Notes under the pieces: model-generated | What the model saw: only the letters and a program-made list of their open reading frames with translations | Told to the model about the DNA's origin: nothing | The model's database searches: none | Source: Octopus vulgaris | Lineage: Eukaryota | Assembly (NCBI GenBank): GCA_951406725.2 | Contig: OX597817.1 | Coordinates: forward strand, 93,248,001-93,312,000 | Direction: 5' to 3' | Length of the DNA: 64,000 nt | In this document: positions 22,200 to 62,914 of the stretch, one piece after another | How positions within the stretch are numbered: the first letter of the stretch is position 1 | Layout: every line of letters starts with the position of its first letter | Position numbers and translations under genes: made by a program

Positions 22200-22288
22200 G
22201 TTCGGCACCTTGGGCAAGTGTCTTCTACTATAGCCTCAGGCTGACCAAAGCCTTGTGAGTGGATTTGGTAGTTGAAAGAAGCTCGTCG

Positions 22289-22319
<31 letters not shown>

Positions 22320-22867: not shown

Positions 22868-23439
22868 GGATCTTTTCAAATTTGTGGCCAGGACCCCAGA
22901 TCTTTCTAGTTAACTAAATAATTTGAAACTTTGTGTACTCATAGAGTGGAACTAGTTTATTCGCCAGTTGGAACTAGTTTATTTGAGAAAAATCTATTTT
23001 ATGACTTTAATCGTAGATTAAAACTGCGAATTTTAACCAATGAGATTGCTTGTTTTCATATCTAAAACGTTACTGCGATCTGTTAGTGTGACGTTGAAAG
23101 CAGTTTTGTGACGTAGTTGAAGACGGCTTATAAGCACGTCTGCTATTTCTAAAAAGCTTTGTGTGTGGTAAAGTAATTTTTTTACTTTACCATATTTTTA
23201 TAAATTATATCGGAGAATCCATATTTTTATAAATTATATCGGAGAATCCATATTTTTATAACATATATCGGAGAATCCATGTGATTTTTCGTTGTTTTTC
23301 TCTTATACATATGTGAATTATTTCTGAGTATGCATTGTCTGGGAGACTTTTTCTTGCAGTTGAGAAATTTTTGGCTGCTATTTCTAAAAAGCTCGGTGTG
23401 TGGTTAAGTAATTTTTTTACTTTACCATATTTTTATAAA

Positions 23440-23476
<37 letters not shown>

Positions 23477-26480: not shown

Positions 26481-26860
26481 ATTTTACTCTTTTACTTGTT
26501 TCAGTCATTTGACTGTGGCCATGCTGGAGCACCGCCTTTAGTCAAGCAAATCAACCCAAGGGCTTTTTCTTTGTAAGCCTAGTACTTATTCTATTGGTGT
26601 CTTTCACCGAACCACTAAGTTACAGGGACGTAAACACACCAGCATCGGTTGTCAAGTGATGTTGGGGGTACAAACACACACACATATTCTTCTATACATA
26701 TATATAATGGGCTTCTTTCAGTTTCCGTCTACCAGATCCACTCACAAGGCTTTGGTCGGCCTGAGGCTATAGTAGAAGACACTTGCCCTAGGTGCCATGC
26801 AGTGGGACTGAATCTGGAACCATGTGGTTGGTAAGCAAGCTACTTAGCACACAGCCATGG
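26481..26860 (-). mobile_element. SINE copy, reverse orientation
   Basis: Reverse complement of the 18350 family. Confidence 0.85.
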
Positions 26861-29219: not shown

Positions 29220-30134
29220 TAGAATTCGCATTTTTTGTTTCATTTAAGATTTATAAACTTGTTCAGAATATTTTATACAGCAATTATAAACACATTTTTT
29301 TACGTTCTTTGTAAAGTAAGTGCATATTGTATATAAGAAATGTTTTTCCCAGGATTTCATTCTCTATAATTGGTGGTACATTTTCTATAGGAGTCTATAT
29401 TATACATGAATAAGTACAGTAATTAAATTCATAAATGCAAAATTACACTATCATCATCATCATCATTTTCTACATCTGAGTTTCCATGCTGGCAATATTT
29501 GGATAAAGGCTTATTGAGGTACTATTTTATTGCTGAATGCTCTTTGTTACCAACTGTTGTCACTTTTTCAAATAAAATATTTTCATTATAGTGATCTTCA
29601 CAAACAGAGTATAGAAGCACAGAACAACTTGTTTACAGGAGAAATAAACATATCACCTTTTTACTGGAAACAGTGTCATGCAAAAACATGAATGTAGCAT
29701 TTATATACATATGCGTGTGCGCCCACACACACACACAAACACACACTTTTATGACAGGCTTCCATAAAATTTCTGCCTACTATTAACAGGTTTTACTAAA
29801 GAAGCATTAGTCACCCTTTTGCAGTAGTACAAGAGACTTATCCAAGTTGGCAAACAGTGGGGTAGAACCTAGAAAAAAATCAAACTATGTATTCATGAAG
29901 CTATGACAGCAGTTTGATGACTTGTATAAGACTATTCTATCATATCTAATTCCATGGGAATGATTGAATTCATATGTGTGTGTGTAATAAAGTGAAAAAA
30001 GACAGGGATTGAAGAAATCCAGGCAAATATGATATTTAGCATTATATATATATATGCCTGGATTTCGTCAATCCCTGTCTTTCTTCACTGTATTACACAT
30101 GCACACACGCACACACACACACACACACACATAT

Positions 30135-32057: not shown

Positions 32058-32880
32058 ACAAGTGTCGGCTGAAAAGTTCATAGGCTGACCAAGATACTTT
32101 CATGGAATGCAACCGAAGAAGGTTTATTTTACAACATAGTCTCCCTTACAGTGAACACACTTCTTCCATCAGTTTTGCAGTGCTTGGATACCATTGGTGA
32201 AGAAACTTTCATCCACTTGACCAAAACAGTCATCAACAACAGATATGACATCATTACTGTAATACTGGTTCCCATCCAAGTGTTTTTTACATGTTGATGA
32301 ACAGATGATAATCAGAAGGAGCCAAATCAGGACAAGAGAGAGGCTAAGAGGCTAAACAATCGGTTCAAAGCCACTGTCACACACATCAGCCATTGAAAGC
32401 AAGGATTTGTGTGCCAGATCAATGTCCTGATGAAACAAGACTCCTGTCATAAGTTTCCCTAGGTGTTTGGTCTTGATAGCCTTTTGTAACTGCCTCAGCA
32501 AGTTGGCATAGTATTCTCCATCGATAGTATGGCACTTTTGAAGATAGGCAATAACAAACACAATGTCTTTTCTATCCCACAAAACTGAGGTCATCACCTT
32601 CCCTGCAGATGAAACAACTTTGACCTTCTTTGGATTAGGTGAGGAAGAATGCTTCCACTACATGAATTGTCTCTTTGGCATGTTAATAGCTTTTAGATTT
32701 TTGATCCAATTATTGTATTCATTAGTTTGCTATTTTTAATGGTTCAGTCAGGCATAGAGTAGCAGTGTACCTCTTTAAGGCTTCCATTACTAGTAGGCGG
32801 GAGGAAGAAAATATTCCTTGCATTAGTGACCTGGTTCAAATGCTCCCATCAGAGTAGCCCCCTTCTAAAATCTTCAGCAA
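32058..32880 (-). mobile_element. Degraded mariner
   Basis: ORF 32352-32597: SVLWDRKDIVF..YLQK..TIDGEYYANLLRQL..GVLFHQD. Confidence 0.8.
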
Positions 32881-35573: not shown

Positions 35574-36352
35574 TGGTGCAGGATTGGCTGTCTTGTAAGT
35601 AGCTTGCTTACCAACCACATGGTTCCTGGTTCAGTTCCACTGTGTGGCACCTTAGGCAAGTGTCTTCTACTATAGCCTTGGGCTGACCAAAGCCTTGTGA
35701 GTGGATTTGGTAGACAGAAACTGAAAGAAGCCCATCTTATATGTGTGTGTGTGTGTGTGTGTTTGTTCCCCCAACATCACTTGACAACCGATGCTGGTGT
35801 GTTTACATCCCCGTAACTTAGCAGTTTGGCAAAAGGGGCTGATAGAATAAGTACTAGGCTTACAAAGAATAAGTCCTGCGGTTAAATTGCTCAACTGTAG
35901 GTGATGCTCCAGCATGGCTGCAGTCAAATGACTGAAACAAGTAAAATAATAATGGCATGGTTGTGTGGTAAGGAGCTTGCTTTCCAACCACATGGTTCCA
36001 GGTTCAGTTCCTCTGTGTGGCACCTTGGGCAAGTGTCTTCTACTATAGCCTCAGGCCGACCAAAACCTTGTGAGTGGATTTGGTAGACAGAAACTGAAAG
36101 AAGCCTGTCATATATGTGTGTGTGTGTGTGGCTCTTTGAGTCTGTGTTTGTCTCCCCACCACTTGACAACCAGTGTTGGTGTGTTTATGTCCCCATAACT
36201 TGGTGGTTCAGCAAAAAAGACTGATGGAATAAGTACCGGGCTTAAAAAGTAAATAAGTACTGGGGTCAATTAGATCAACTAAAATTCCTCAAGGTGGTAC
36301 CCCAGCAAGGCCACAGTCTAATGATTGAAACAAGTAAAAGATAAAAAGATAA
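35574..36352 (+). mobile_element. Two tandem SINE copies (35574-35945 and 35953-36352)
   Basis: Both match the 18350 family head, body and tail. Confidence 0.85.
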
Positions 36353-43160: not shown

Positions 43161-44939
43161 ATGATATATATATATATATATAAATACATAAATACAGAAA
43201 CATATACACACACATGCATATATATATATATATACGATGGGCTTCTTTCAGTTTCTATCTACCAAATCCACTCACAAGGCTTTGGTCAGCCTGAGGGCTA
43301 TAGTAGAAGACGCTTGCCCAAGGTGCCACGCAGTGGGACTGAACCTGGAACCATGTGGTTACTAAGGAAGCTACTTACCATATTTTTAAAATCTTAGGGA
43401 ATAATAAGCATTCCAGGTTATCAGGACATTTACTATTTTACACTGTACTAATGCAATGTAAACAGTATCATTTATAATATTACTAGCAGAGATACCCGGT
43501 GTTGCCCGTATTACATTCAATTGAAGAATTAGACTTTTCTGTTATATTTTCTGTAATGGACTGGAATATCTATGTTTCTAATTTCATCAAAATTGCAGAT
43601 GAGGGTTATTTTCCTCTTTACACACCCTAAAAAAATTGTAATCATGTCACATGTATCCCATACTACTAATTTTTATGCACATATTCCAAAATCCCACTCT
43701 TATTGAACCTGTTAAAAAGATTTTGCTCCTGAAAAATGAAGGTCATGGAGCTCTAAAATGTGAGAGTTAAGGCCCCTGTTGGGGGTAGGCATCTTCATGT
43801 CAACCAGAGAAGTTGAATTGTTGAGAATCTTTTTAACTTGGGTCTTATATCTATTGTTTGAATTTCTTTGAAATAGGAAATATATGTTCACTGGGTTTGA
43901 ATGATCACAATAAGTAGTCAGCTACCCTACCTTAGTCGTTACCACTCTCAATGTAGGATTCTTCACCATCCAGGTGACAGGCACAGCCATAAGATGCATT
44001 ACAAATGTATAGCAATTGGAAGGGCGTGACCCAACTGAAATCAGCGTTAACAACTGTGTGATGTGAGGGCTAAGGAGAAATGAAAGTGTCACCTCTGGAA
44101 TTTGCAAATGACCACTATACTGATACGTAACTGGACAGAATAAATTTACAATCTATAAATGTCTTTGAATAACCAGTCACTTACCTGGGAAGGCCTTGAA
44201 ATCAATGTTACCATCTGGCGACTATATGTGACCCAATGATAATAAAAAGACTGAAAGGAGGTCTGCAATCAAATAACTATACTCAACACTTTGCAACTGA
44301 ATAAGTGGAGGCAAAGATGCCTCTCTTTTACTTGACAATTTATGCACCACATTGCAGAAATCACAATGTAAGTGTATGTCAAAGCAAACTGTTACTCTGT
44401 TGTACCATTGAATTACAAATAATGCTCATCTTTTATGCTCGGGTGACCCTACAGCTTCCAAGAGCACAACTGTATTCATTTTTGCTTAGATAAAATGACA
44501 AAATTGTGGGTGTTAAGTCCCCATGGAGGGTTCTTTCTAACTTGTAAGATGATAAAATTTTATAAATATTAACAAACACCATTTGTGAAGCAGTGATGAG
44601 GGAGAAACACAAAGACACACACATAGACTAACATATATACATACATATATATACAATTGATTTCTTTCAGTTTCTGTCTACAAAATCCACTGACAAGGCT
44701 TTGGTTGGTCTGAGGCTATAGCAGAAGACACATGCCAAGTTACCACACAGTGGGACTGAACTGAGGACCATGTGTTTTGGAACTAAGTTTGTTACTACAC
44801 AGCCACACCTGCACCTATGTATGTGTGTGTGTGTGTGTGTATGTGTGTATGGGTGTATATATGTATGCATGTATATATATGTATATATATGTGTATATAT
44901 TGCATGTACATCTATATCTATAGAAATACATGTATACAT

Positions 44940-46527
44940 AGCTCCTCTATGCTGATGACCTTGCTCTAATTGCTGAGTCATTATCAGAACTGGAGAAGAA
45001 GTTTCAGGTGTGGAAGCATGGTTTAGAATCGAAGGGCCTTAGAGTCAACCTAGCTAAAACCAAAGTCCTAATAAGTAGGAAGGTAGACAAATCACAAACG
45101 CCTTCAGGTAGATGGCCCTGCTCGATCTGTAGAAAAGGTGTAGGTAGAAACTCTATAAGATGCACCAAGTGTAAGCTATGGACACATAAGAGGTGCAGCA
45201 ATGTCATAGGAAGGCTAACTAGGAAGATGGTTTTTGTATGTGGCAGATGCTCGGGAGCATTAACCTCTGAAAATCTGCAGAAAACAACTTCCGTCACTTT
45301 CCAGGGGAAAAAACCAGAAGTAGTTGATAGCTTCCGTTATCTTGGTGACCAAGTCAATAGTGGGGGTGGGTGTGCTGAAAGTGTAACGGCTAGAGTAAGA
45401 ATAGCCTGGGCAAAGTTTAGGGAGCTCTTACCTCTGTTGGTGACTAAAGGCCTCTCGCTCAGAGTAAAAGGCAGACTGTATGATGCATGTGTACGAACAG
45501 CCATGCTACATGGCAGTGAAACATGGGCCGTGACTGCTGAGGACATGCGTAAGCTCGCGAGAAATGAAGCTAGTATGCTCCGTTGGATGTGTAATGTCAG
45601 TGTTCATAGTCGACAGAGTGTAAGTACCTTGAGAGAAAAGTTGGACCTAAGAGGAATTAGATGTTGTGTGCAAGAGAGACGATTGCGCTGGTATGGTCAT
45701 GTGGTGAGAATGGATGAAGATAGGTGTGTGAAAAAGTGCCACACCCTGGCAGTTGAGGGGACCTGTGGAAGAGGTAGACCCAGGAAAACCTGGGTCGAGG
45801 TGGTGAAGCACGACCTTCGAACTCTAGGTCTCACCAAGGAAATGACCAGAGACCGAGACCTATGGAAGTATGCTGTGTGTGAGAAGACCCGGCAAGACCA
45901 GTGAGAACAATCAAAATCAAATCATATATCAGAAAGCAGGGGTTAAGTGACCCATCCGTTCGTGTCCGCTGTCAGCCTCGTCTGGCACCCGTGCCGGTGA
46001 TACGTAAAAGCACCATTCGCTGGCCCCATGTCGGTGGCACGTAAAAGCACCATCCGTTCGTGGTCGTTTGCCAGCTCTGTCTGGCCCCGTGTCGGTGGCA
46101 CGTAAAAGCACCATCCGTTCGTGTCCGTTGCCAGCCTCGGCTGGCCCCCGTGCCGGTGACACGTAAAAGCACCGTCCGTTCGTGGCCGGTTGCCAGCTCT
46201 GTCTGGCCCCGTGTCGGTGGCACGCAAAAGCACCATCCGTTCGTGTCCGTTGCCAGCATCGCCTGGCCCCGTGCCGGTGACACGTAAAAGCACCATCCGT
46301 TCGTGGCCGTTCGCCAGCTCTGTCTGGCACCTGTGCAGGTGGCACGTAAAAAACACCCACTACACTCGCGGAGTGGTTGGCGTTAGGAAGGGCATCCAGC
46401 CGTAGAAACACTGCCAGATATGACTGGGCCTGACGAAGCCTTCCAGCTTCACAGACCCCAGTTGACCCGTCCAACCCATGCTAGCATGGAAAGCGGACGC
46501 TAAACGATGATGATGATGATGATGATG
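44940..46527 (+). mobile_element. RTE-clade LINE copy 2, 5'-truncated at the YADD region
   Basis: ORF 45008-45904 is nearly identical to the C-terminal half of 6100-7965. Minisatellite 3' UTR and (GAT)n tail. Confidence 0.95.
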
Positions 46528-46733: not shown

Positions 46734-46766
<33 letters not shown>

Positions 46767-46954
46767 AAAGGGCTTAGTAAAATAAATTACTTTGCCACAT
46801 ACTGAACTCATTAGAAATAGCAGCTAAAAAATTTTTTTTTTTTTTTTTTAACTATTTCTAATACTTAAAAAGAAAATCTCATATAGTGTTTTCTCAATTC
46901 AACTCACGAAAGTATGGGGGTAAAGACATTAAAAAATCAAATGCAAAGGTTATT

Positions 46955-47006
46955 TGAGAACATACTTTTCTAGATTAGTCAAATCGACATTTCTTTCGTC
47001 AGCTCA
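46955..47006 (-). ncRNA. Type I hammerhead motif, family A unit 1 (stem III mutated)
   Basis: TGAG-CTGACGA-stem II-GAAA-AGTATG-TT-CTCA; the palindrome CGTACG has decayed. Confidence 0.6.
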
Positions 47007-47512
47007 GAATTCCTTGGTTCGGATTTGGAAACACTGAAAGTGGGAGCATACCCTTTCGGCTTCTTATCGCTTCTGAAGATCCGCTCGAACTATCAGTGCC
47101 AGCAAATTCAAAATATGCAAGCGAAGAATTTCTGCTCTCCCCTTTCCACCAGCGTGGGTTAAAATCAGTAAACACTATGTTTTATCGGTAAAATCGAGAG
47201 AGATGAATTATAATTTCAACAATTGAGGGTAAAATTAATTAATTATTAATCAATTTCACCAAGTATTCAGTATGCAAAGGGACCAATTAAGGCGAATTCA
47301 AATTATTACATTATATAAAAGGGCTTAGTAAAATAAATTACTTTGCCACATACTGAACTCATTAGAAATAGCAGCTAAAAATTTTTTTTTTTTTTTTTTT
47401 TTTAAAACTATTTCTAATACTTAAAGAAAATCTCTCTCATATAGTGTTTTCTCAATTCAACTCACGAAAGTATGGGGGTAAAGACATTAAAAAATCAAAT
47501 GCAAAGGTTATT

Positions 47513-47564
47513 TGAGAACGTACGTTTCTAGATTAGTCAAATCGACATTTCTTTCGTCAGCTCA
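47513..47564 (-). ncRNA. Type I hammerhead ribozyme, family A unit 2
   Basis: TGAG-CTGACGA-AAGAAATGTCGATTTGACTAATCTA-GAAA-CGTACG-TT-CTCA: intact core, palindromic stem III, GUU triplet. Confidence 0.78.
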
Positions 47565-48074
47565 GAATTCCTTGGTTCGGATTTGGAAACACTGAAAGTG
47601 GGAGCATACCCTTTCGGCTTCTTATCGCTTCTGAAGATCCGCTCGAACTATCAGTGCCAGCAAATTCAAAATATGCAAGCGAAGAATTTCTGCTCTCCCC
47701 TTTCCACCAGCGTGGGTTAAAATCAGTAAACACTATGTTTTATCGGTAAAATCGAGAGAGATGAATTATAATTTCAACAATTGAGGGTAAAATTAATTAA
47801 TTATTAATCAATTTCACCAAGTATTCAGTATGCAAAGGGACCAATTAAGGCGAATTCAAATTATTACATTATATAAAAGGGCTTAGTAAAATAAATTACT
47901 TTGCCACATACTGAACTCATTAGAAATAGCAGCTAAAAAAAATTTTATTTTTTATTTTTTTTTTTTAAACTATTTCTAATACTTAAAGAAAATCTCTCTC
48001 ATATAGTGTTTTCTCAATTCAACTCACGAAAGTATGGGGGTAAAGACATTAAAAAATCAAATGCAAAGGTTATT

Positions 48075-48126
48075 TGAGAACGTACGTTTCTAGATTAGTC
48101 AAATGGACATTTCTTTCGTCAGCTCA
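48075..48126 (-). ncRNA. Type I hammerhead ribozyme, family A unit 3
   Basis: Same as unit 2 with one stem II loop change. Confidence 0.78.
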
Positions 48127-48148
48127 GAATTCCTTGGTTATTAGAAAT

Positions 48149-48184
<36 letters not shown>

Positions 48185-48557
48185 TTTAGCTGCTATTTCT
48201 AATGAGTTCAGTATGTGGCAAAGTAATTTATTTTACTAAGCCCTTTTATATAATGTAATAATTTGAATTCGCCTTAATTGGTCCCTTTGCATACTGAATA
48301 CTTGGTGAAATTGATTAATAATTAATTAATTTTACCCTCAATTGTTGAAATTATAATTCATCTCTCTCGATTTTACCGATAAAACATAGTGTTTACTGAT
48401 TTTAACCCACGCTGGTGGAAAGGGGAGAGCAGAAATTCTTCGCTTGCATATTTTGAATTTGCTGGCACTGATAGTTCGAGCGGATCTTCAGAAGCGATAA
48501 GAAGCCGAAAGGGTATGCTCCCACTTTCAGTGTTTCCAAATCCGAACCAAGGAATTC

Positions 48558-48609
48558 TGAGCTGACGAAAGAAATGTCGATTTGACTAATCTAGAAACGT
48601 ACGTTCTCA
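48558..48609 (+). ncRNA. Type I hammerhead ribozyme, family A inverted unit
   Basis: TGAG CTGACGA ... GAAA CGTACG TT CTCA on the + strand. Confidence 0.78.
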
Positions 48610-48961
48610 AATAACCTTTGCATTTGATTTTTTAATGTCTTTACCCCCATACTTTCGTGAGTTGAATTGAGAAAACACTATATGAGAGAGATTTTCTTTT
48701 AGAAATAGTTTAAAAAAAAAAAAAAAATTTTTTTAGCTGCTATTTCTAATGAGTTCAGTGTGTGGCAAAGTAATTTATTTTACTAAGCCCTTTTATATAA
48801 TGTAATAATTTGAATTCGCCTTAATTGGTCCCTTTGCATACTGAATACTTGGTGAAATTGATTAATAATTAATTAATTTTACCCTCAATTGTTGAAATAT
48901 ATATATATATATATATATACATCTATATATATATATATTTATATATATATATATATATATA

Positions 48962-49609
48962 TAAATGAAAGAATGGAGTTGAACGACGAATTAACAAAAT
49001 TCCTTTATTTTATTTTCGACATATCCACACACACATAGCCATTAATGCAGTTATATACATACACACACATAGGCACTCATTCACAAAAGAAAACAACAAA
49101 ATCACCATTCATTTGACCTGCACCCTTTTACCTTCCTATTCTTAGGTCTCTCTCCTCCAACCTTGTTTGAACCCTTGAACCTTCTAGAATCTTCTACATT
49201 CAACCATTTTTGATGTCACTGCTTATAACGGAATATTTTAAAGAAACACTCATTATCGCTATGGGCTCCGTGTGGGCAGTCATCTAAAAGTTTTTGTGCA
49301 TCTTGATGCTGACATAAGTTCCTTACTTTTCCTGATGAGAAGGCGGCATAATGCACCCCTTATTCCTTCGAAATTAGGAATATGCAGCCTTCGAAACATA
49401 TGTCGAAAATAAAATAAAGGAATTTTGTTAATTCGTCGTTCAACTCCATTCTTTCATTTATTTGTATTTAAAAAAACACACAAATTTCCACACGATAGCA
49501 CGTGATCTCTGCCCTAGGCATGTAGCTTCAACCGTGTTTTTCTGACGTGAATTTGCTACCCAGGTATCGGTTAACCGAATTATCCATAAAATAATTCATT
49601 CAACTATTC

Positions 49610-49663: not shown

Positions 49664-50071
49664 ACATGTAAATTTGAATTTAAAATAATAAGGGTGAAAG
49701 ATTGAATATTAATTTGATTAATATGAATTGAAAACCAGTGGTGTAGCATATAAGACCATAGTGGATCTTCTTCTAGCAAAATGGATGTCCACTCTTCATG
49801 GTTCAATCCTGTTATATAATAGTTTCACTTTAATAGTTTCAGTATTAAACTGAAAGCCTTTCTTTCACTTTTAACACGTAATACTGAAATAGTGGAGAAG
49901 ATATGATGTTGCTGTGGGCTTGCCCTAGGCAGAAAATTAAAAAATTTTTCTTGCCCCTGACACTCCCTGGATCCTAAGTAAGGCATGTGTAAAATTTGAA
50001 ATTGGTTGTGTAGTTCTCAAGTTTTAGGGATTCACACAGACAGACACACATTCTCAGTTTTATATATATAG

Positions 50072-50289
50072 ATTATAAATTTGGGATATTTCCAATAGAA
50101 CTGCAACTCCTATTTTAGGATAACCTTATGGTATGGAATATTAATTGAAAATTTTATTGTATTTTATAGTAGGTTTTTTTTTTTAATGCTTATATAATTT
50201 TATTGGATACAACTTCCTATGTGTATTCCATACAATAAGGTTATCCTGAAATAGGAGTTGCAGTTCTATTGGTAAAATCCCAAATTTGT

Positions 50290-50292
<3 letters not shown>
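50072..50292. repeat. Fold-back element with ~68-bp imperfect arms
   Basis: CCAATAGAACTGCAACTCCTATTT..GGATAACCTTAT mirrored by ATAAGGTTATCC..AAATAGGAGTTGCAGTTCTATTGG. Confidence 0.85.
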
Positions 50293-50324
<32 letters not shown>

Positions 50325-51857: not shown

Positions 51858-54623
51858 TCAGGTGTAGTTTCGGCGGATTTCGGAAAGCATGAGGGCCTTA
51901 AAAGATGCAGTGTCATGGCAGTCAACAACTGACGCAGGCAGTTTATTCCATGCTTCAGCAACTCTGAGCGTGAAAAAATGTTTCCGAAAGTCATGGGAGC
52001 TGTATTGTTTTCTGACTTTGTAGGCATGTCCACGTGTGTTAGACACATGGAGATCAAAAAGGTGTTCAGTGTTGTTGTTGGTGAGGTGGTTGATAACTTT
52101 GTGGGTGTTTACCAAGTCCGTCGCCAAACGCCGGAGCTTCAGTGAATCCATGCCCAGGGAAACAAGGCGCTCAGAATATGGTAGGTGTCTGATGGAGGGT
52201 ATGCGTTTGGTTGCACGTCTCTGGACAGATTCCAGGAGGTCAATGTTCTGTGCAAGATAGGGGTTCCAAACTGATGATGCGAATTCCAAGTGTGGTCGTA
52301 CCATAGCTGTATACAGTTTTAAATAGATGGCTGGAGAGCGGCTAACAAAAGACCTGCTGAGTGATGCCAAGACACCCTCGGCCTTCCTGACAATCTTAGA
52401 GATATGCTTTGACCAACGCAAATCACTGCTGACAGTGATGCCTAGGTCACGCTCACAAGAGGATTTCTTGATATCAGTGTTGTGGAGGGAGTATGTGAAC
52501 GCAGGGTTTTTTCTCCCAAAATGCATGGTGGTACACTTGTCCACAGCCAGTTTCAGTTGCCAGTCTGTGATCCATTGCTGCATTGTGTCTAGGTCTGATT
52601 GCAGGAAAGAGTTGTAGACATCAGGATCTGTCCTCTTGATTTCAAGGTACAGCTTGATGTCGTCTGCATATTTCAATACTGTGGCATTCTTTAAATTGGC
52701 ATCTATGTCGTTAATGTATGCCACAAACAAGAGGGGACCAAGGACAGATCCCTGTGGTACACCCGATGACATCTCATATGGTGTAGAGTGCTGTCCTAGA
52801 ACTGTGACTACCTCCTTTCGGCTGAGGATGAAGGATTTCAACCAGTTAAAAAGGTCATCCCCCACACCCATTGCAGAGAGTTTCACCATAAGCCTTTTGT
52901 GTGGCACAGAGTTGAAAGCCTTAGCAAAGTCAAGGTAGACAACATCCACCCATGAGCCACTGTCAGTAATCTGAGTAATGTCCTCAAGGAACTCGACAAG
53001 CTGGTCACTGCAGCTGGAGTTAGGGACAAATCCATATTGTGAGGGTCGGATGAGACTGTGAGAGCTCCAGAATTTCCAGAGTGTTTCTCTGACACACGAT
53101 TCCATCAGTTTTGCAATACAGCTAGTGAGACTGACTGGGCGATAGTTGACAGGTGATGTGCGGTCGCCCTTTTTGAACAGAGGAATGACACTGGCAGTTT
53201 TCCACTGCTCCGGAGTAGCACCATTGTTGAGACAGTACTGGAAGAAAATAGAAAGCTGGTGTAAAAGGAAGTGCCTGCCACGTTTGAGAAGCAGGTATGT
53301 AACTCCATCGAGACCAGGGGAGGCATAGTTGCGCTTATTTTGAAGGTGACGTCGCAGTATTGCAGGTGTAAATTCCATAGTTGTTATGGAGTTTGCTGTT
53401 AGTGATGGTGAAGATGGTACATTTTGACTTTCAACAGTGAATATGTTTGCATAGCACTCGGCAATGAGTTCTGCGCATTCCTTGGGGTCGTCAGTGATCT
53501 GGTTTGTGTGAGGGTTGCGAAGAGGGCCCACTGGAGAGTGAGGTCTCTGCTTTGAGTGCACATATTTCCAGAAAACCTTGCTGTCAGGATTGGCTGCTAT
53601 GCACTGTTCAAATTCAAGCACTGCTTTTTTTGTCACTTGCTTGAGATGGTTGGAGGATTTATTCCGCTTCTTCCTGTTGGTGTCTGATTTATGCAACCTG
53701 TATTCTCGTTCAGCAGTCTGACGTTCCCTCCTGGCAAGTCGGACCGCTGAAGTTTCCCAAATTGCCCTTTTGGGGCGGTTCTTCTTTTTTTGTTTACGTG
53801 GCACTGATGCTGCACATGCTGCCCATATTGAGTCCAGGATACTCTGGAGTATAGTATTCACATCTCCAGAGTTGTAGAATTCACGCCAGTTTGGGTGCTG
53901 TAGTTCAGTGTGGTACAGGTTCCAATCTGCTCTCTTCCAATCGAAGGAAGCAGATTGGAGATGGTTCAGGTTTTTGTTGCCCGCAAGAGCCAGATTGGCG
54001 ATGATCATAGCATGATCAGAGTCACCTAGAGGTTCCTCCGTAGTGCAATTGATAACTGCTTCAGGAGTTGTGGTGAAGAGCAGGTCCAAGGTGTTGTCGC
54101 CTCTTGTTGGAGAGGTGACTACTTGTGACCAGTTTGAGTCCAGCACAAGCTCAACAAAATCGTTTGCACTCTGTGGCCAATGGAAGGTCTCCCAATCGAT
54201 CTCAGGATGATTGAAATCGCCTGCAATAAACACATAAGTGGCTGTTTTCCTGGCAGCAGCTCGGAGGACATTGCAAAGCTGTGTGTCCCGATGGTAACTT
54301 GGGGGACGATAAACAACGCCAAGCAGGAGTGTTGACATGGTCATACGCACGTCACAGAAAAAAACTTCTTCTTGTGATTCGTTCAAATCGGCACAAGGAA
54401 TTACCAAAAAATTTGAACGAACGTAGACCATCACACCACCACCACGGCGGTTAGTGCGGTCCTTACGGAAGAGGTTGTACCCCGTAATGTTGAAAACCCC
54501 ATCACAGAGTAAGGAATGCGCCCATGTTTCCGTGACAGTGATGAAGTCAGGGTCAACACTTCTGACGTAGGCGTTGAACAAATGTATTTTGTTGCATAAA
54601 CTGCGAGCATTTAAGGACAACAA
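51858..54623 (-). CDS. CR1 ORF2: AP endonuclease plus reverse transcriptase, 921 aa
   Basis: NARSL, VTETW, GDFN, LDL, SDH (APE); NYRPVSLTS, YLDFAKAF, GVPQGSVLGP, YADD (RT). No internal stops. The called start is not ATG. Confidence 0.92.
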   Translation of the reverse strand: MLSLNARSLCNKIHLFNAYVRSVDPDFITVTETWAHSLLCDGVFNITGYNLFRKDRTNRRGGGVMVYVRSNFLVIPCADLNESQEEVFFCDVRMTMSTLLLGVVYRPPSYHRDTQLCNVLRAAARKTATYVFIAGDFNHPEIDWETFHWPQSANDFVELVLDSNWSQVVTSPTRGDNTLDLLFTTTPEAVINCTTEEPLGDSDHAMIIANLALAGNKNLNHLQSASFDWKRADWNLYHTELQHPNWREFYNSGDVNTILQSILDSIWAACAASVPRKQKKKNRPKRAIWETSAVRLARRERQTAEREYRLHKSDTNRKKRNKSSNHLKQVTKKAVLEFEQCIAANPDSKVFWKYVHSKQRPHSPVGPLRNPHTNQITDDPKECAELIAECYANIFTVESQNVPSSPSLTANSITTMEFTPAILRRHLQNKRNYASPGLDGVTYLLLKRGRHFLLHQLSIFFQYCLNNGATPEQWKTASVIPLFKKGDRTSPVNYRPVSLTSCIAKLMESCVRETLWKFWSSHSLIRPSQYGFVPNSSCSDQLVEFLEDITQITDSGSWVDVVYLDFAKAFNSVPHKRLMVKLSAMGVGDDLFNWLKSFILSRKEVVTVLGQHSTPYEMSSGVPQGSVLGPLLFVAYINDIDANLKNATVLKYADDIKLYLEIKRTDPDVYNSFLQSDLDTMQQWITDWQLKLAVDKCTTMHFGRKNPAFTYSLHNTDIKKSSCERDLGITVSSDLRWSKHISKIVRKAEGVLASLSRSFVSRSPAIYLKLYTAMVRPHLEFASSVWNPYLAQNIDLLESVQRRATKRIPSIRHLPYSERLVSLGMDSLKLRRLATDLVNTHKVINHLTNNNTEHLFDLHVSNTRGHAYKVRKQYSSHDFRKHFFTLRVAEAWNKLPASVVDCHDTASFKALMLSEIRRNYT

Positions 54624-54711
54624 TTTGTACCCTGCTCGCAGTTTATGATGGTGTGTAGAGGATGGCAGGTTGTTCTGGCTTAGTTTCCCTGAGTTGCTGT
54701 AGTCTTTTTAG

Positions 54712-55101
54712 TTATTGTGGGTAGAGAGCACTCAGACCAGCTGGTATCTCTATCCACGTTTCAGCAGTCTTGACAAATCTCCAGATTTGTCCATCTTCCC
54801 GAAGACTGAAGCTTTCCTGTAGAGCTGAGTTCCTATTCAGGGAAGCCACTACACGTAGCTTCGGACGTACATCGGACGGTAAGCCTGGGCGTGTTCGGAA
54901 GGTGGTCCAATTTTCCCGCCCAGCTTTAACTGAGGCCAGATGGTAAGAGGTTGCCTCAGTAGGGTCCGTAAAAGACAACTTGATGAGCCTAGGTTTTGGG
55001 CCAGGTCGTCCAAGGCGGATAGCACCCGTTGGGGGAACGCAGCCTAGGTCTTTGGCTGAGTTGGCAGCAAAAGCCTGAAGATCAGCCATGTCTTCTGGCA
55101 C
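54712..55101 (-). CDS. CR1 ORF1 C-terminal part
   Basis: IRLGRPGPKPRLIKLSF is typical of CR1/L2 ORF1, and it lies directly upstream of ORF2. Confidence 0.7.
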   Translation of the reverse strand: MPEDMADLQAFAANSAKDLGCVPPTGAIRLGRPGPKPRLIKLSFTDPTEATSYHLASVKAGRENWTTFRTRPGLPSDVRPKLRVVASLNRNSALQESFSLREDGQIWRFVKTAETWIEIPAGLSALYPQ

Positions 55102-55232
55102 CCCAATGGCAATGACTTCATGGGTGGCAGAATCCGCGGTCTTAAATGCGACAAGAGGTTGAGTGCCTGAATAACACCTTATAGCTTCAGTGACGCCTCA
55201 AATAATCATTTCTTCCTTAGTCGGCACTTTTT

Positions 55233-55274
<42 letters not shown>

Positions 55275-55330
55275 CATACATATATATATACATATACACA
55301 TATATATACATATATATATATACATATATA

Positions 55331-55867
55331 CTTTATAATAGGGTTCAGCAAAGATTTGCTTTACCACATACCGAAATTTAGAAATAGCAGCCAAAGAACG
55401 TTAGCTGTTTCCTCTACTTTAAAGAGAGACTCCCAGAAAAAATCAAATTACTTGAAAACAATCCACGAAGGCAGAGAGGAAAAATAACGAAAATCAATCG
55501 ATATTAGATTACCCATGTACGCGTTTCGGAATTAGATCGGTATAAAGAATGTGTAATTTATACTTTACCCAAACATTTTCTTCATCAGCATGGGACTTCA
55601 CAATATTAGATATTAAAAATATTAAATTCGAAGGCACTGGAAGAACTGAACATATCTCTCCAACTAACGGTATCAGACAGATCAAATTCAACGTCAGTAC
55701 CACCGAATTAAAAAATAAACGAATGAAGTTCATTACCTTCCCCTGCCCATCCACGTGTGTCGTCAAGTAAAATACTACAGAAAAAATCTGTAGTTTATTA
55801 TCAGGGAGAAAATTATATTACCAATAATAACAAAGGGTAAAATTAATTATTTAACTAGTAATCAATG
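55331..55867 (-). repeat. Hammerhead-containing non-coding repeat, family B copy 1
   Basis: Inverted homologue at 58717-59183. Shares sequence blocks with family A. Adjacent to (TA)n. Confidence 0.85.
55512..55594 (-). ncRNA. Type I hammerhead ribozyme, family B
   Basis: CCCATG-CTGATGA-long stem II-GAAA-CGCG-TA-CATGGG: perfect 6-bp stem I, palindromic stem III, GUA triplet. Confidence 0.85.
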
Positions 55868-58716
55868 ATTACTGATGAGCGACTTCAGGATCAGGGCCGA
55901 ATGGCTGCCCAGAAGAAGACCAGCTCAGAGGAGAAGGGTCTGGAAGCTTAAAGATCCTGCTAATGGACGGAGATTTAGAGACGTCCTACTCGAAGCCTTC
56001 GACGAAATAGAAGGGGATATAGCTTCACATAATGTGGAAGACAACTGGAGGTTTCTACGGGACAATCTGCTGAGAGCCACTGACCAGATCTGTGGATGGA
56101 GCAAAGTCCCATCTCGTCCCAGGGTAACGTGGTGGTGGAATAATGTTGTAGACAGGACTATTAGAGACAAGAGACAGGCTTGGAAGGACTGGAAGAATGG
56201 TGGTAGCAGGGAATTGTATCAGACTGTGAAAAGAGAAGCTAGGAGACAGGTTTGTTTAGACAGGGAAGCAGATAAGAAAAAATTTGCCAATGTTCTGCGC
56301 CGTGAGGACCAAAGACTTGAAGTATTTCGTGTTGCAAGACAGTATGTGAAAGAGAATTGTGATGTGGTAGGAGAGAAATGTGTTTGCATGGATGATGGTT
56401 CACTTGTGCTAAATGAGGATGCAAAGAGAGAGGTTTTGAGATGCCACTATGAAAGGTTGCTCAACAAAGAAAATGAATGGGATAAAGAGAGTCTGCCAAT
56501 TGTCGACCCAACAGTGGGACCAGCTATCCGAGTTGACAGTTCTTTGGTAACTAAGGCAATTAGAAGCATGAAGACAGGGAAAGCCCCAGGCCCATCAGGA
56601 ATCACTGCAGAGATGCTCAAAATATCTGGCAGTGTCGGATATAGCCTAGTCACCCGTATAGTTAACCAGGTGATACACGAAGAAGTCATACCCAATGACT
56701 GGTGTAGTAGCATGACAGTCAACTGCTACAAAGGTAAAGGTGACGCCCTAGATACAAGTAATTACAGCGGTATCAAGCTGTTGGATCAGGTAATGAAGGT
56801 TATGGAAAGGGTCATAGCCCAACTGATTAGGGAGAGAGTCAACTTGGACGAGATGCAGTTCGGTTTCGTGCCAGGGAAAAGCACCATCGATGCCATATTC
56901 CTGGTGAGACAGCTGCAGGAGAAATACCTAGCCAAAGATAAACCTCTGTACCTGGCTTTCGTTGACTTGGAGAAAGCCTTTGACAGGATCCCCCGATCCC
57001 TTATCTGGTGTTCAATGAGGAAACTAGGGATAGATGAATGATTATTGAGAGCTGTGCATATACAGGGACACTGTTAGTAAGGTGAGGGTTGGCAACGAGT
57101 ACAGTGAAAAATTCTGGGTAGAGGTTGGGGTCCACCAAGGTTCAGTCCTCAGCCCCCTCCTATTTATCATAGTCCTCTGGGCAATAACGGAGGAATTCAA
57201 GACAGGATGCCCCTGGGAGCTCCTCTATGCTGATGACCTTGCTCTAATTGCTGAGTCACTATCAGAACTGGAGGAGAAGTTTTAGACGTGGAAGCAAGGA
57301 TTAGAATCGAAGGGCCTTAGAGTAAACCTAGCTAAAACCAAAGTCCTAATAAGTAGGAAGGTAGACAAATCACATACGCCTTCAGGTAGATGGCCCTGCT
57401 TGATCTGTAGAAAAGGTGTAGGTAGGAACTCCATAAGATGAACCAAGTGTAAGCTATGGACACATAAGAGGTGCAACAAAGTCAAAGGAAGGCTAACTAG
57501 GAAGATACTTTTTGTATGTGGCAGATGCTCTGGTGCAATAAACACTGAAAATGCGCAGAGATCATCTTCTGCCACATTCCAGGGAGAAAAACTAGAAATA
57601 GTTGATAGTTTCCATTACCTCGGTGACCAAGTCAGTAGTCGGGGCGGGTGTGCTGAAAGTGTAACTGCTAGAGTAAGAATAGCCTGGGCAAAGTTCAGAG
57701 AGCTCTTACCTCTGCTGGTGACAAAAGGCCTCTCGCTCAGAGTAAAAGGCAGACTGTATGACGCATGTGTACGAACAGCCATGCTACATGGCAGTGAAAC
57801 ATGCTCCGTGACTGCTGAGGATATGCGTAAGCTCACAAGAAATGAAGCCAGTATGCTCCGATGGATGTGTAATGTCAGTGTTCACACCCGACAGAGTGTA
57901 AGTACCTTGAGAGAAAAGTTGGACCTAAGAAGCATCAGATGTGGTGTGCAAGAGAGACATCTACACTGGTATGGACACGTGGTAAGAATGGATGAAGATA
58001 GTTGTGTGAAAAAGTGCCACACGCTAGTGGTTGAGGGAACCTGTGGAAGAGGTAGACCCAGGAAAACCTGGGACGAGGTGGTAATGCATGACCTTCGCGC
58101 TTTAGGTCTCACCAAGGAAATGATCAGAGACCGAGACCTTTGGAAGTATGCTGTGCGTGAGAAGACCCGGCAGGACAAGTGAGGCCATAACCCGTGGCCT
58201 CTACCTGGGACGTAGTCAGTCCACCTGTGCATACCTTCCTTCTTGGGACACAAAACTCTGCTTGTGAAGACCTGTTGAGGCAAGTGAAAATCAAAATCGA
58301 AATCGATCCACATCAATGGAATTTGTAGTTGTAATACCAGTGCCGGTGGCATGCAAGAGAACCATCCGAACGTGGCCATAGCCAGTGCCGCATCGACTGG
58401 CCTCCATGTCGGTGGCACGTAACAAACACCATCCGATTGTGGCCATTGCCAGCCTCGCCTGGCCTCCGTGCCGGTGGCACATAAAAAGCACTATCCGAGC
58501 GTGGCCGTTCGCCAGCCTCGTCTGGCACCCGTTTCGGTGGCACGTAAAAAGCACCCACTACACTTACGGAGTGGTTGGCATTAGGAAGGGCATCCAGCTG
58601 TAGAAACACTGCCAGATCTGACTGGGCCTGGTGCAGCCTTCGGGCTTCCCAGACCCCAGTTGAACCGTCCAACCCATGCTAGCATGGAAAGCGGATGTTA
58701 AACGATGATGATGATG
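55868..58716 (+). mobile_element. RTE-clade LINE copy 3 (longest; stops and frameshift)
   Basis: ORFs 55875-57041, 57082-57285 and 57718-58182 are collinear with 6100-7965. Minisatellite UTR and (GAT)n tail. Confidence 0.95.
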
Positions 58717-59183
58717 ATGTTGAATTTGATCTGTCTGATACCGTTAGTTGGAGAGTTATATTCGGTTCTTCCAGTGCCTTTGAATTTAATATTTTTAATA
58801 TTTAATATTGTGAAGTCCCATGCCGATGAAGAAAATATTCGGGTAAAGTATAAATTACACATTCTTTATACCGATCTAATTCGGAAATGCGTACATGGGT
58901 AATCTAATATCGATTGATTTTCGGTATTTTTCTTCTCTGCCTTTGTGGATTGTTTACAAGTAATTTCTTTTTTCCGGGAGTCTCTTTTTGAAGTAGAGGA
59001 AATAGCTAAGGTTCTTTGGCTGCTATTTCAAAACTTTGGTATGTGGTAAAGCAAATCTTTGCTGAACCCTATTATAAAGTATTACTTTAATTTACTGTGA
59101 AATGGTCCTTTTTCATGCCGAATTCTACTTGGTGAAATTATTGATTACTACTTAATTAATTAATTTTACCCTTTGTTATTATT
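58717..59183 (+). repeat. Family B copy 2, inverted and circularly permuted relative to copy 1
   Basis: Reverse complement of 55331-55693, continuing through a 60-nt junction into the reverse complement of 55825-55867. Confidence 0.85.
58817..58899 (+). ncRNA. Family B hammerhead with a core mutation (CCGATGA), probably inactive
   Basis: CCCATG-CCGATGA-...-GAAA-TGCG-TA-CATGGG. Confidence 0.65.
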
Positions 59184-59282
59184 AATATATACATATATAT
59201 ATATACATACATATATATATATACATATATAGTAAACAGACAAAAGAATGATATTGGTGTTGCATAATGGTCATAACCTTTA

Positions 59283-59415: not shown

Positions 59416-59754
59416 GTTGAAGTTACTGCTAATGACAAGAAATTGCATAATTGTTATCATTTGTATTGGATAGAAATGTATTATTTGTAAATGACCTAGA
59501 TCAGAATTTATTGCCTGGATAATTAAAGTACATTCATTATCACTAATGGTAATTCATTTCTTACTATTAATAAGTTGTTGCTTCTTAATTAATTTTCTTT
59601 TCTCATCAGTCTTTGAAACAATTGTCACCTTTCATAGTTATGTAATAGCATCATCTTCATTCCTTTGTCTGTTCACTGTTGTCAGTGCTCAATTGATACT
59701 TCATATTTGTCATGTCAGAAATAAATATATATTTGTAATATTGAGCGAAAACAC

Positions 59755-60071
59755 CTAAAGCTCCACGAGGCTCCAGCAGGGGGTGATGGCGACCCTTGTT
59801 GTACTCTTTCGCCCCCAACTTTCTTGAGTAACGCTGCGATGGACTGGTGTCCCATCCAGCTCGGGGTGTAATGACTGATTTCTATCAGTCATTTTTTTTA
59901 TGCGCCTTTTCAAGCCTAGCCAGGCTCATGGGCCCGGTTTCTGTGGCGTATATGTTACACCCCTAGCTGGATGGGACACCAGTCCATCGCAGCGTTACTC
60001 AAGAAAGTTGGGGGCGAAAGAGTATAACAAGGGTCGCCATCACCCCCTGCTGGAGCCTCGTGGAGCTTTAG
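59755..60071. repeat. 117-bp near-perfect inverted repeat with an 83-bp spacer, SINE-like sequence
   Basis: Arms 59755-59871 and 59955-60071, with two mismatches seen. Confidence 0.9.
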
Positions 60072-62914
60072 ATGATCAACACTGAAGTACTTTATTGCAA
60101 TCAAATCATGAAACATTTAGAGGGTTCCTAGCCATGCTTGAAATAACAATCAAATCTTCCTCAAATTATATCCTACTATCTTTATGAAGTACATTAGATA
60201 ATAGTCTTAGCTACACATATTCTGAATAAAAGACAATTAAAATAACTGACCAACTTAATTCCATTCTTTTCAAAATCTTATGTTATCTAGATTTATGATT
60301 ATGCAGCTCAAAGTGCACAAACCTTTGAGTGTAGTCCACTGAGCCAGTAAATAGCCATGTTATACCTTTACTATATTAGCAACCATACTGTATGTTGTTG
60401 CAGGGAAGGGTTGTCATACATATTGTTGCTGCCTAATCTACACACTATATCTGTGTAAACCTCACTAGTAATATCTACAACTGACTTAGGGAACTTGCAT
60501 CACATCTAACATGTTGGTTGCCCATACCACCAACCTTACTGTATCAGCACTGTATATAATTAGTGAGCCTATACTATTCTGTTACTAGTATTTATCCTCA
60601 ATCAAACATATGATCAGAGGTATCCCTCTTTTGTATATCAAAGAATCTATTGGCTAATACATCCTTCTATATTTAAGCTGCTATTTCTAGCAGATCGAAC
60701 ATGTACATAATCCCATTTGTTTCACTGTGATGCATTTCTTGTAAATCTAATCCCTGTTGTCTTGTGTGTGTGAGGTGTTTGGCAAATTCCTTTCACACAC
60801 TGAAGACATCATCCCCTTTTGATTCTTTTTATTCCCATTTCTGTAGTACTACACATCTGTCTCTCCAAAATTTCCTATATTAGTTTTGCTGTACTAAGAG
60901 GTTGTTAGTTCTTTGTTCAAACCTTTTACAGTTCTGTGTAAGCAGATACCATAATTGCTTATCCTCCTGACCATTCTCACCACACATTGTAATCAAATGT
61001 GTGAGGGAGAGAAATTGACTGCAGTACTTGATTGGTATTTTAAAGGGTAAAAACCCCATCCAGTCATGAAGGACCATAGGATACACCTAGAAAGTTCCCC
61101 TCTGAAGCACAAGTCTGGGCAAGGTTGTTATGGAAGACCAGCAGTTGCCTGTGCATACCAGCTTCCTCTCTCTGTGCCAAGGGAAAAGCAAAGGCCAATA
61201 CAGCTTGGTACCAGAGATGTCAGAACTCATTTCTACAGCTCAGTGAACTGGAGCAATGTGAAATAAAATGTCTTGCTCAAGAATACAACACACAACCTGG
61301 TTTGGGAATCAAACTCATTACCTCATGATTGTGAACCCAACACTAACCACTGAGCCATGGCATTTTATTTATGCATGAACAGCAAAGTTGACCTCAGGGC
61401 ACAGAAAGCTAGAACAAATCTTGCCTGTCATTGTATCCAACATTCTAACAGTGAGCCAGCCAATCTACAATCTCACTAAATTAAATTAAATTACTTCACG
61501 AGTATTGTGCTAAAAAAGTGTTTATTATATTTAAAATACTAAGTGTACTATTTTCAGCTACCAGCCAATAACCAAATGTATTCTGTATTTAAATATGCAG
61601 GTGGGTACAGTATTTAACTACCAGTCAGTAGGTATGTATGTGCTATGTTATAATCAACTAACAGCAAGGAACCAGTAATATACTACACTGTAATCAGTGT
61701 ACTCTACTATAATCAATCACCAACCAAAGATCATAATTCAGTTTCATTTTACTTGTTGCTAAAACATCTAAGAGTATTGCCCATTATATCAACACTACTT
61801 ATTTTATCAACTTTCAAAAAATTTGAACTCAAATATTAACAAGACATAGCAAAACATAATGTATTTTGCACACAACTCCATACTAATCTTGCCAAGAGTC
61901 ATTACAAGTCATTCTAACAGCAGTTTGCCTAGATATCAGAAACACGTGATCATCTGGAAAAGTCACCTGTAACAGAGAGGCAATATATCCAGGAAGAACT
62001 ATCTGGCTGTTGCTATAAAACCTATTGTTAAGCATTAGTTCTACAGATCATAAATGTCTACATATGTTGTTCTTGTTCACTGGTCATCAATATAAAATGT
62101 TTAAATTTTAGACAGCAATAAAATAAGAAAATATATCATATTCTTTAAATTAATCTTTATTCTGAAGAAAAAAAATGAAAAAAGATCTTTAAATAAAATA
62201 GCAGTATAAATAGTAACATTATAAAATAGATTTTCTTTTCTCATCAGTCTTTGAAAGAGTCAGCTGTCCATTCTAGAGAAATCCATTTAGAGAAAGGAGA
62301 ATGTTTCCTTGGAACTATTGTCGATGTAAGAACAGTGCAGCAGTAGGAGGATTAATAACTCTTGACTTCTGAGAAACTTTATGAGAGATCTTGGATTCCT
62401 CTGTAATCCACGTGACTGTGAGGATTTTTAACTATATTGTCAGTTAACAAAATAAATAAAATTAAAAAATCAAACAAACTGTAAACTGCTTCTTGCAGAT
62501 AGAAAAGTACATCAGAAGAGGTAGAAAAAAATGAAATATTTTACAGTTTTAAAGTCCTCACATCTCTGCAAAAGTGGAAAATAAAAAGATGACTTTCTGG
62601 TTTTGATTATGTCTGTTTGATACAGTTTACAGATATGTTCTTTTATATTTTTCACTGTAGCCAAAGTATAGAAAAGAATGGTGGAGAGAGTACTTCTCGA
62701 TGTTATCAATTTAATTAAGCGTTTTGGGTTTTATTTTCTTGTGTTAACAAATGAGAGGGATGGAAAAAAAAATCTCCTTCCTGTTAGAAATAACTGAACT
62801 GTAAGAATCTCAGCCGAGAAGGATGAATGCCACAACTTCCTCCTTCCTCATTATGAAGATTTTGTTAATGTTGAGAATTTTAGAGATGAGAATTGATGGA
62901 ATGTAGGATAACAT

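What the first reader, a model, noticed from the sequence alone, without database searches (positions are those of the whole stretch)
55331..59183. Second, diverged hammerhead family (~600 nt) present as circularly permuted, inverted copies
Seen in sequence: copy 1 (55331-55867) has a clean hammerhead CCCATG-CTGATGA...GAAA-CGCG-TA-CATGGG on the minus strand. Copy 2 (58717-59183) is inverted and reads through a 60-nt junction (59080-59139) that joins the two ends of copy 1, so the unit closes on itself at roughly 600 nt. An RTE sits between the two copies. Inference: permuted insertions are expected from reverse transcription of a circular or multimeric RNA. Copy 2 has a CCGATGA core mutation and is probably dead.
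Basis: partly seen in the sequence, partly recalled or inferred. Interest (0 to 1): 0.75.

Follow-up and report, generated by a model that had tools for sequence, protein, structure and literature searches.

The report
Non-coding Penelope-type element with hammerhead ribozyme
This is a short non-coding jumping element with a self-cutting RNA motif, inserted head-to-head into a TA repeat in the way Penelope-type retrotransposons are known to insert, so it is a new family of a known kind rather than a randomly permuted copy of a circular RNA.

Summary
Two inverted arms (93% identical over 369 nt) carry a type I hammerhead, the unit closes at about 596 nt, and a 5'-truncated LINE lies between them. 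The inference of random circular permutation does not hold. Both inner ends are junctions with the LINE. Both outer ends sit in (TA)n runs at two fixed sites, X and Y, about 104 nt apart. A roughly 70%-identical sister family in the window (46756-48903) ends at the same two sites, and a third relative ends at X. Each site lies 11-15 nt past a conserved hairpin. Head-to-head arms, one end with a tail, and a (TA)n target are the published signature of Penelope-like elements (PLEs). Best reading: one insertion of a non-autonomous PLE derivative (animal non-LTR retrozyme type), reverse-transcribed from two fixed start sites on a multimeric or circular RNA; the two templates could not be told apart. 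Unusual points are a tail about three times the published 30-40 bp, and a LINE exactly at the inversion centre without target duplication, possibly carried in as cargo. No PLE protein partner was found. Interest 0.33.

The parts
55235..55330 (.). (TA)n-type microsatellite, left half of the target
55331..55870 (-). Left arm (copy 1), 540 nt; RNA-sense 3' end at site X (55328-55331, 3-nt overlap with the TA run); 5' end at the LINE junction
55342..55365 (-). Hairpin H1 (3 bp, 2x2 loop, 5 bp), ending 11 nt before end X; all 8 pairs kept in 7 of 7 copies parsed, two pairs swapped on both sides between families
55512..55594 (-). Type I hammerhead, intact core, palindromic helix III (dimer type), A.C at 10.1-11.1, cut predicted after 55518
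55868..58718 (+). 5'-truncated non-LTR retrotransposon (APE-RT-PHD family; RTE by recall), broken ORF (55869-57041, 57442-58182), 62-nt repeats in the 3' UTR, (GAT)5 tail at 58704-58718; no target-site duplication
58715..59183 (+). Right arm (copy 2); 5' end overlaps the LINE tail by TGATG (TGACG in the left arm); RNA-sense 3' end at site Y
58817..58899 (+). Hammerhead of the right arm: U4C, helix III ATGCGT, A.G at 10.1-11.1
59045..59068 (+). Hairpin H1 of the right arm (internal site X at 59079)
59080..59183 (+). Tail: 104 nt between sites X and Y, present at this end only; includes the 56-nt joining segment
59131..59170 (+). Hairpin H2 (17 bp), ending 13 nt before end Y; also predicted in the sister family
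59181..59231 (.). (TA)n-type microsatellite, right half of the target
46756..48903 (.). Sister family A: left arm of 2.5 tandem units ending at X, right arm of 1.4 units ending at Y (tail 97 nt), inversion junction at 48139 with no LINE; collinear with the finding over the whole unit
23134..23445 (+). Third relative C, ending at X in a (TA)n run; other end not identified

Best explanation
The finding is one composite insertion of a non-autonomous Penelope-like element, the kind also called an animal non-LTR retrozyme. Shown in sequence: a ~596-nt non-coding, highly structured unit with a dimer-type hammerhead; two arms head-to-head with both RNA 3' ends pointing outward into (TA)n; two fixed 3' ends about 100 nt apart, each just past a conserved hairpin. 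Inferred: the unit is transcribed as a multimer (which the ribozyme may or may not cut and circularise); a PLE RT/GIY-YIG protein supplied in trans cuts both strands of a (TA)n run, and each DNA end primes reverse transcription inside the RNA, one at X and one at Y; the two 5'-truncated cDNAs are joined in the middle by microhomology. The LINE in the middle either inserted later and deleted the junction, or was already upstream of the right arm in the donor RNA and was copied with it.
For: 7 of 7 outer ends examined (B 2, A 2, D 2, C 1) abut TA-type runs, where a random position has about 0.011 chance. 5 of 5 outer ends of the three related elements fall on X (3) or Y (2). A and B are collinear (305 of 437 ungapped columns identical; the upstream block scores 62 vs a maximum of 39 in 500 shuffles). 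The terminal block folds only on the ribozyme strand (z -4.84, -3.93, -4.20; antisense -0.38, -1.32). Published PLE signature: inverted 5'-truncated copy at the 5' end, tail at one end, (TA)n bias, hammerhead in the pLTR (PMC8557442 sections 6, 11, 15); head-to-head most frequent (PMC3846280 passage); both strands cut and extended from two internal start sites that define the tail (PMC11167929). No coding signal in the unit.
Against: No autonomous partner was found: no GIY-YIG hit in 150 frames scanned; no match of 4 terminal motifs to the published PLE consensus file, and only 2 isolated chance-like matches of 6 further motifs. The tail is 97-104 nt against a published 30-40 bp. The sample is small (three related elements, one window). 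Polarising the arm differences was uninformative (2 vs 5 of 26 by outgroup, p 0.45). No transcription or cleavage data.
Confidence: 0.8

Rival explanations
1. Same PLE-driven integration, but the template is a ribozyme-made circular monomer (retrozyme circRNA) read round from fixed start sites. This is a choice of template inside the best explanation, not an alternative to it.
For: Unit closure; arms cross the cleavage site; whole-unit folding z -6.05 (B) and -6.93 (A), 0 of 40 shuffles each; animal retrozymes accumulate as circRNAs (PMC7229834 sections 14, 17).
Against: A linear tandem transcript explains the same facts. In family A the outermost unit has 7 private substitutions against 0-2 in the four others, which a single circle would not template, but they cluster into 2-3 events and lie partly beside homopolymers, so this is weak. 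In an Anolis PLE, ribozyme mutants insert normally in vitro (PMC11167929).
Confidence: 0.3
2. One reading: independent, randomly permuted copies from rolling-circle reverse transcription with no fixed start.
For: The two arms do start and end at different unit positions.
Against: Inner ends are LINE junctions; outer ends coincide with those of diverged relatives, 5 of 5.
Confidence: 0.04
3. The LINE was cargo: it had inserted into a donor unit earlier, and the right arm plus LINE is one 3.3-kb cDNA whose 5' truncation point (55868) is the inversion junction.
For: The LINE lies exactly at the inversion centre with no duplication; its 3' end overlaps the arm by a 5-nt microhomology; it is not younger than the arms (41 of 966 private changes, 4.2%, vs 24 of 365 between arms, 3.3% per arm); the right-arm ribozyme is the damaged one, which would keep such an RNA uncut; capture of unrelated sequence between pLTRs is reported (PMC3846280 passage).
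Against: The age difference is not significant (p 0.37); derived changes are not significantly enriched in the right arm (9 vs 5, 12 unpolarised, p 0.42); no second copy of the junction in the window. Later LINE insertion with deletion of the junction (about 0.4) or capture of LINE cDNA during integration (about 0.2) fit as well.
Confidence: 0.4
4. Ordinary truncated pLTRs of a full-length autonomous PLE, with no short non-autonomous master.
For: Solo and inverted pLTR fragments are the commonest PLE remains (PMC4209133).
Against: The left arm runs from the tail region straight into the region upstream of the ribozyme with no ORF between, and family A repeats the same short unit in tandem.
Confidence: 0.06
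5. A fold-back or MITE-like DNA transposon with long inverted ends in TA repeats.
For: Inverted arms flank an internal segment; TA-rich target.
Against: The two ends are staggered by about 100 nt, the arms hold tandem units in family A, and ribozyme and strand-specific RNA structure are conserved.
Confidence: 0.04

Closest known systems
Animal non-LTR retrozymes (PMC7229834; bioRxiv 10.64898/2026.07.22.740005)
   Same: Non-coding head-to-tail unit of low GC with a type I hammerhead, palindromic helix III, mismatch at the base of helix II as in axolotl HHR_Amex2; unit length within the 51-972 bp range given in the preprint.
   Different: Longer than the 170-400 nt RNAs tested in 2020; this locus holds no complete tandem of two ribozymes on one strand; circRNA not tested; the passages I read do not describe head-to-head insertions or fixed staggered ends for retrozymes.
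EN+ Penelope-like elements (Penelope/Poseidon, Neptune, Hydra clades; PMC8557442, PMC3846280, PMC11167929)
   Same: Head-to-head inverted 5'-truncated arm, tail at one end, hammerhead on the sense strand near the 3' end, (TA)n target (Hydra clade: almost all families), non-canonical 10.1-11.1 pairs (File S2).
   Different: No ORF; tail 97-104 nt instead of 30-40 bp; cleavage site 187-206 nt from end X, further than in the Hydra-clade consensus ends I read; no sequence match to the published Hydra, Naiad or Chlamys consensus file by motif search.
Naiad PLEs
   Same: (TA)n target and tandem/inverted insertions; by eye the last ~40 nt of two octopus Naiad consensus sequences resemble the H1-to-X stretch (not computed).
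   Different: Naiads lack a canonical hammerhead; this element has one.
Non-autonomous Chlamys elements such as MRC1 (PMC8557442 passage)
   Same: Non-autonomous PLE with pLTRs and multicopy head-to-tail insertions.
   Different: Green algae, different targets, no hammerhead reported.

Membership tests
Type I hammerhead ribozyme | Conserved core CUGANGA / GAAA / UH with helices I-III in type I order | tested here: met
   Left arm meets the descriptor; 5 hits in window vs 0 in 100 shuffles. Right arm has U4C.
Type I hammerhead ribozyme | Scores against an Rfam hammerhead model | tested here: not met
   No hammerhead family at gathering score or at E up to 10; helix II is a 54-nt extended arm.
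Type I hammerhead ribozyme | Self-cleavage | not testable with these tools
   Needs an in vitro assay.
Non-autonomous Penelope-like element | Tandem or partial-tandem organisation with an inverted 5'-truncated copy at the 5' end | tested here: met
   Head-to-head arms in B, A and D; tandem units in A.
Non-autonomous Penelope-like element | Fixed 3' end plus optional tail at one end | tested here: met
   3 ends at X, 2 at Y, of 5. Tail is 97-104 nt, longer than published.
Non-autonomous Penelope-like element | Insertion into AT-rich or microsatellite DNA | tested here: met
   7 of 7 outer ends abut TA-type runs.
Non-autonomous Penelope-like element | Terminal sequence shared with an autonomous PLE of the same genome | tested here: inconclusive
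   No GIY-YIG among 150 frames; no terminal motif match in one published consensus file; the host genome and repeat libraries were not searchable.
Autonomous PLE | ORF with telomerase-like RT and GIY-YIG endonuclease | tested here: not met
   Longest frame of the unit (102 aa) has no hit in Pfam at E 0.001, none among 1.84 billion proteins, none in the Atlas.
Animal non-LTR retrozyme | Non-coding head-to-tail repeat unit with a type I hammerhead in each unit | tested here: met
   Direct for sister family A (551/558-nt units); for B the closure is read from the two arms.
Animal non-LTR retrozyme | [quoted passage not shown] | tested here: not met
   B has one ribozyme per arm on opposite strands; family A meets it (cores at 47560 and 48122).
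Animal non-LTR retrozyme | Expressed as linear and circular monomer RNA | not testable with these tools
   No RNA data available.
RTE-clade LINE (middle element) | RT phylogeny places it in the RTE clade | not tested
   Single-ORF APE-RT homologues of about 1050 aa and a (GAT)n tail fit; no named RTE reference was among the hits.

The most novel reading that the evidence does not exclude
These ~550-600-nt ribozyme RNAs carry a compact two-hairpin signal that sets two PLE reverse-transcription start sites about 100 nt apart (three times the known spacing), and at this locus a ribozyme-damaged unit was copied together with 2.85 kb of upstream LINE as one cDNA. That would be direct structural proof that retrozyme-type RNAs are integrated by PLE machinery from linear, uncut transcripts and can move unrelated cargo.
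Probability: 0.3. Interest if true: 0.55.

Novelty: new member of a known kind. Interest (0 to 1): 0.33.

Why it matters
The link between animal retrozymes and PLEs rests so far on co-occurrence and pLTR similarity, mainly in vertebrates (bioRxiv 10.64898/2026.07.22.740005). These elements show a retrozyme-type unit and the full PLE integration footprint in the same insertions, three times in one 64-kb window. They give a simple genome-wide test of an open question, circular versus linear template, and name two candidate hairpins for how a PLE enzyme picks its start sites. The element class itself is known, which limits the surprise.

Tried and rejected
Rfam: no hammerhead. Coding role of the 102-aa sense frame and 74-aa antisense frame: no support (Pfam best E 0.084 and none; 0 hits in phmmer; no usable Atlas hit; the last two were run on the 102-aa frame only); a 2-nt indel between families in the conserved block also argues non-coding. 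More copies: profile and covariance searches of the window found no further family members beyond A, B and C. Prokaryotic genome collection: 0 hits with the strict motif, 24 with the relaxed one, 0 of 24 with homology beyond the motif. Host identity: two protein searches gave relatives mostly at 42-58% identity (one partial hit at 72%) and no usable name; my impression of a cephalopod is recall only. Published Hydra/Naiad consensus sequences were read and motif-searched but not aligned to the window. Circle versus multimer from unit variants in family A: inconclusive. Order of LINE and arms from divergence and polarised changes: inconclusive. The sigma-70 promoter scan is not meaningful for an animal genome and was ignored.

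Full report
OBSERVATION. The sequence is as described. The left arm (55331-55870) and right arm (58715-59183) are inverted relative to each other, 93.2% identical over 369 nt, with a second 57-nt match (55814-55870 to 59189-59136). The 56 nt at 59080-59135 link the two ends of the left arm, giving a unit of about 596 nt. A type I hammerhead lies on the minus strand at 55512-55594, with a predicted cut after 55518. A descriptor scan gave 5 motifs with palindromic helix III in the window and 0 in each of 100 shuffles; a relaxed core adds the right-arm motif at 58823; one further AT-only, non-palindromic hit at 62162 was set aside. Rfam does not recognise any of them.

THE RIBOZYME. Helix III is A-U closed by CGCG, which self-pairs between two molecules (-7.5 kcal/mol; right arm -3.9). 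This is the dimer-requiring type described for amphibian repeats and PLEs (PMC7229834 passages; PMC4209133 parts 1-2 of 4). The base of helix II is a mismatch (A.C left, A.G right, A.A in family A), followed by 3 bp and an internal loop conserved between families. Mismatches at this position occur in Hydra-clade PLE ribozymes (PMC8557442 File S2) and in axolotl HHR_Amex2. The active-like fold is 2.4 kcal/mol above the minimum-energy fold, and the motif alone is no more stable than shuffles. U4C in the right arm reduces but need not abolish activity (PMC3088659 passage).

THE ENDS ARE FIXED. Both inner ends touch the LINE: its protein homology begins at about 55854-55872 in 56 of 120 homologues and further left in only 8, and its (GAT)5 tail overlaps the right arm by TGATG where the left arm has TGACG. 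There is no target duplication. The outer ends lie in TA-type runs. Family A (46756-48903) is collinear with the finding over the whole unit (305 of 437 ungapped columns; upstream block score 62 against a maximum of 39 in 500 shuffles), has tandem 551- and 558-nt units, the same head-to-head layout with a plain junction at 48139, and ends at the homologous sites X and Y. Element C (23134-23445) ends at X. So 5 of 5 outer ends of related elements fall on two sites, 104 nt apart in B and 97 in A. An unrelated hammerhead element D (48952-49609) has the same layout with a 139-nt stagger. All 7 outer ends abut TA-type runs, against about 0.011 per random position; A and D share one run.

RNA STRUCTURE AT THE ENDS. 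The terminal block folds better than all 200 shuffles on the ribozyme strand (z -4.84, -3.93, -4.20) and not on the other (-0.38, -1.32). Hairpin H1 keeps all 8 pairs in 7 of 7 copies parsed, with U-A/C-G and C-G/U-A swaps between families, and ends 11 nt (B, A) to about 13 nt (C) before X. Hairpin H2 ends 13-15 nt before Y. These 7 copies represent only three families, so the covariation is two events. Whole arms fold well (left arm z -6.05, A unit -6.93, 0 of 40 shuffles each), but so do their antisense strands (-4.12, -3.50), and the right arm is weaker (-1.87, 3 of 40).

NO PROTEIN. The unit's longest frames have no credible hits. Of 364 frames of 55 aa or more in the window, 281 passed filters for low complexity and known LINE copies, and the longest 150 were scanned: 5 RVT_1 hits, no GIY-YIG. 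Shorter PLE remains would be missed.

MECHANISM. Shown: layout, fixed staggered ends, target, conserved structure, read-through of the cleavage site. Taken from print: PLE insertions often carry an inverted 5'-truncated copy, a 30-40 bp tail at one end and a (TA)n bias (PMC8557442 abstract, passages, sections 6, 11, 15); head-to-head is the commonest arrangement, and those authors proposed self-priming on an antisense template as its cause (PMC3846280 passages); a purified PLE protein cuts and extends both target strands and starts at two internal RNA sites that define the tail, with or without ribozyme activity (PMC11167929 parts 1-2 of 4). Inferred: a PLE enzyme in trans primed the two halves of a cut (TA)n run at X and at Y on a multimeric or circular RNA, and the truncated cDNAs were joined. 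That H1 and H2 position the enzyme is my inference. Confidence in the class 0.8; in a circular rather than linear template about 0.3.

THE LINE IN THE MIDDLE. Three histories fit: later insertion that deleted the junction (about 0.4); cargo already upstream of the right arm in the donor RNA (about 0.4); capture during integration (about 0.2). The LINE has 41 private changes in 966 columns against 24 differences in 365 columns between the arms, not significantly different per lineage (p 0.37). Of 26 arm differences, 7 could be polarised by outgroup (2 left, 5 right, p 0.45) and 14 with CpG added (5 vs 9, p 0.42). Unresolved.

COMPARISON AND NOVELTY. It works like an EN+ PLE insertion and fits the description of animal non-LTR retrozymes (PMC7229834 passages and sections 14, 17), which a 2026 preprint proposes to be non-autonomous PLE derivatives (10.64898/2026.07.22.740005 parts 1-3 of 5; its supplements could not be seen). 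Membership is met on layout, ends, target and ribozyme; the partner PLE and RNA expression are untested. In the supplement of PMC8557442 (parts 1, 2, 24, 52, 53 of 59 and three searches) octopus Hydra and Naiad families target (TA)n; no terminal motif matched, and a by-eye resemblance to Naiad 3' ends was not computed. The host is not identified by any search. Searches returned no paper that I could see describing this family or a ~100-nt PLE tail; most hits were seen as listings only, and Repbase and Dfam could not be searched, so the family may already be catalogued. PMC6962438 and PMC8969392 were seen as passages and add only context.

VERDICT. Real feature; new member of a known kind; the permutation argument fails, while the PLE footprint and long tail make it a useful test case. 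Interest 0.33.

Noticed in passing
window 48952-49609: Element D: a hammerhead unrelated in sequence (core at 49332, G-C at 10.1-11.1, GUC triplet, palindromic helix III), head-to-head arms with both ends in TA runs and a 139-nt stagger; the most canonical ribozyme in the window.
   Followed up: partly
window 46756-48903: Family A, young (3 differences in 640 columns between arms), with three intact-looking ribozymes (GUU triplet) and one with a broken helix III palindrome in the outermost unit; best candidate for cleavage and circRNA tests.
   Followed up: yes
window 48140 and 48700-48712: In A's right arm, a 6-nt deletion in the first unit and the end of the arm in the second unit fall at the same unit position, beside the poly(A/T) tract; possible RT pause site.
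   Followed up: no
window 23134-23445: Element C has the H1 block twice, 235 nt apart, with three 29-nt repeats between; no hammerhead found in it; a weak match to the tail region lies at 22903-22934.
   Followed up: partly
window 51858-55197: A LINE on the minus strand with an uninterrupted 949-aa endonuclease-RT frame and a 161-aa upstream frame (CR1-like by recall); its 5' end lies beside the same TA run as the left arm.
   Followed up: no
window 44940-46525: Another copy of the middle LINE ends with its (GAT)n tail in the TA-type run that also holds the left end of family A; nested insertions cluster in these runs.
   Followed up: no
window 5794-8293: Third copy of the same LINE family, 89% identical, with a 656-aa open frame.
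   Followed up: partly
window 32355-32657: Fragment of a mariner-type transposase (Pfam Transposase_1, E 1e-14).
   Followed up: no
window 18342-18737, 22196-22547, 26482-26859, 35575-36349, 43186-43380, 44583-44824: A dispersed repeat of about 370 nt in at least seven copies, SINE-like.
   Followed up: no
window 59752-60074, 50061-50306, 29975-30107, 23471-23638: Self-inverted repeats of 130-325 nt, MITE-like.
   Followed up: no
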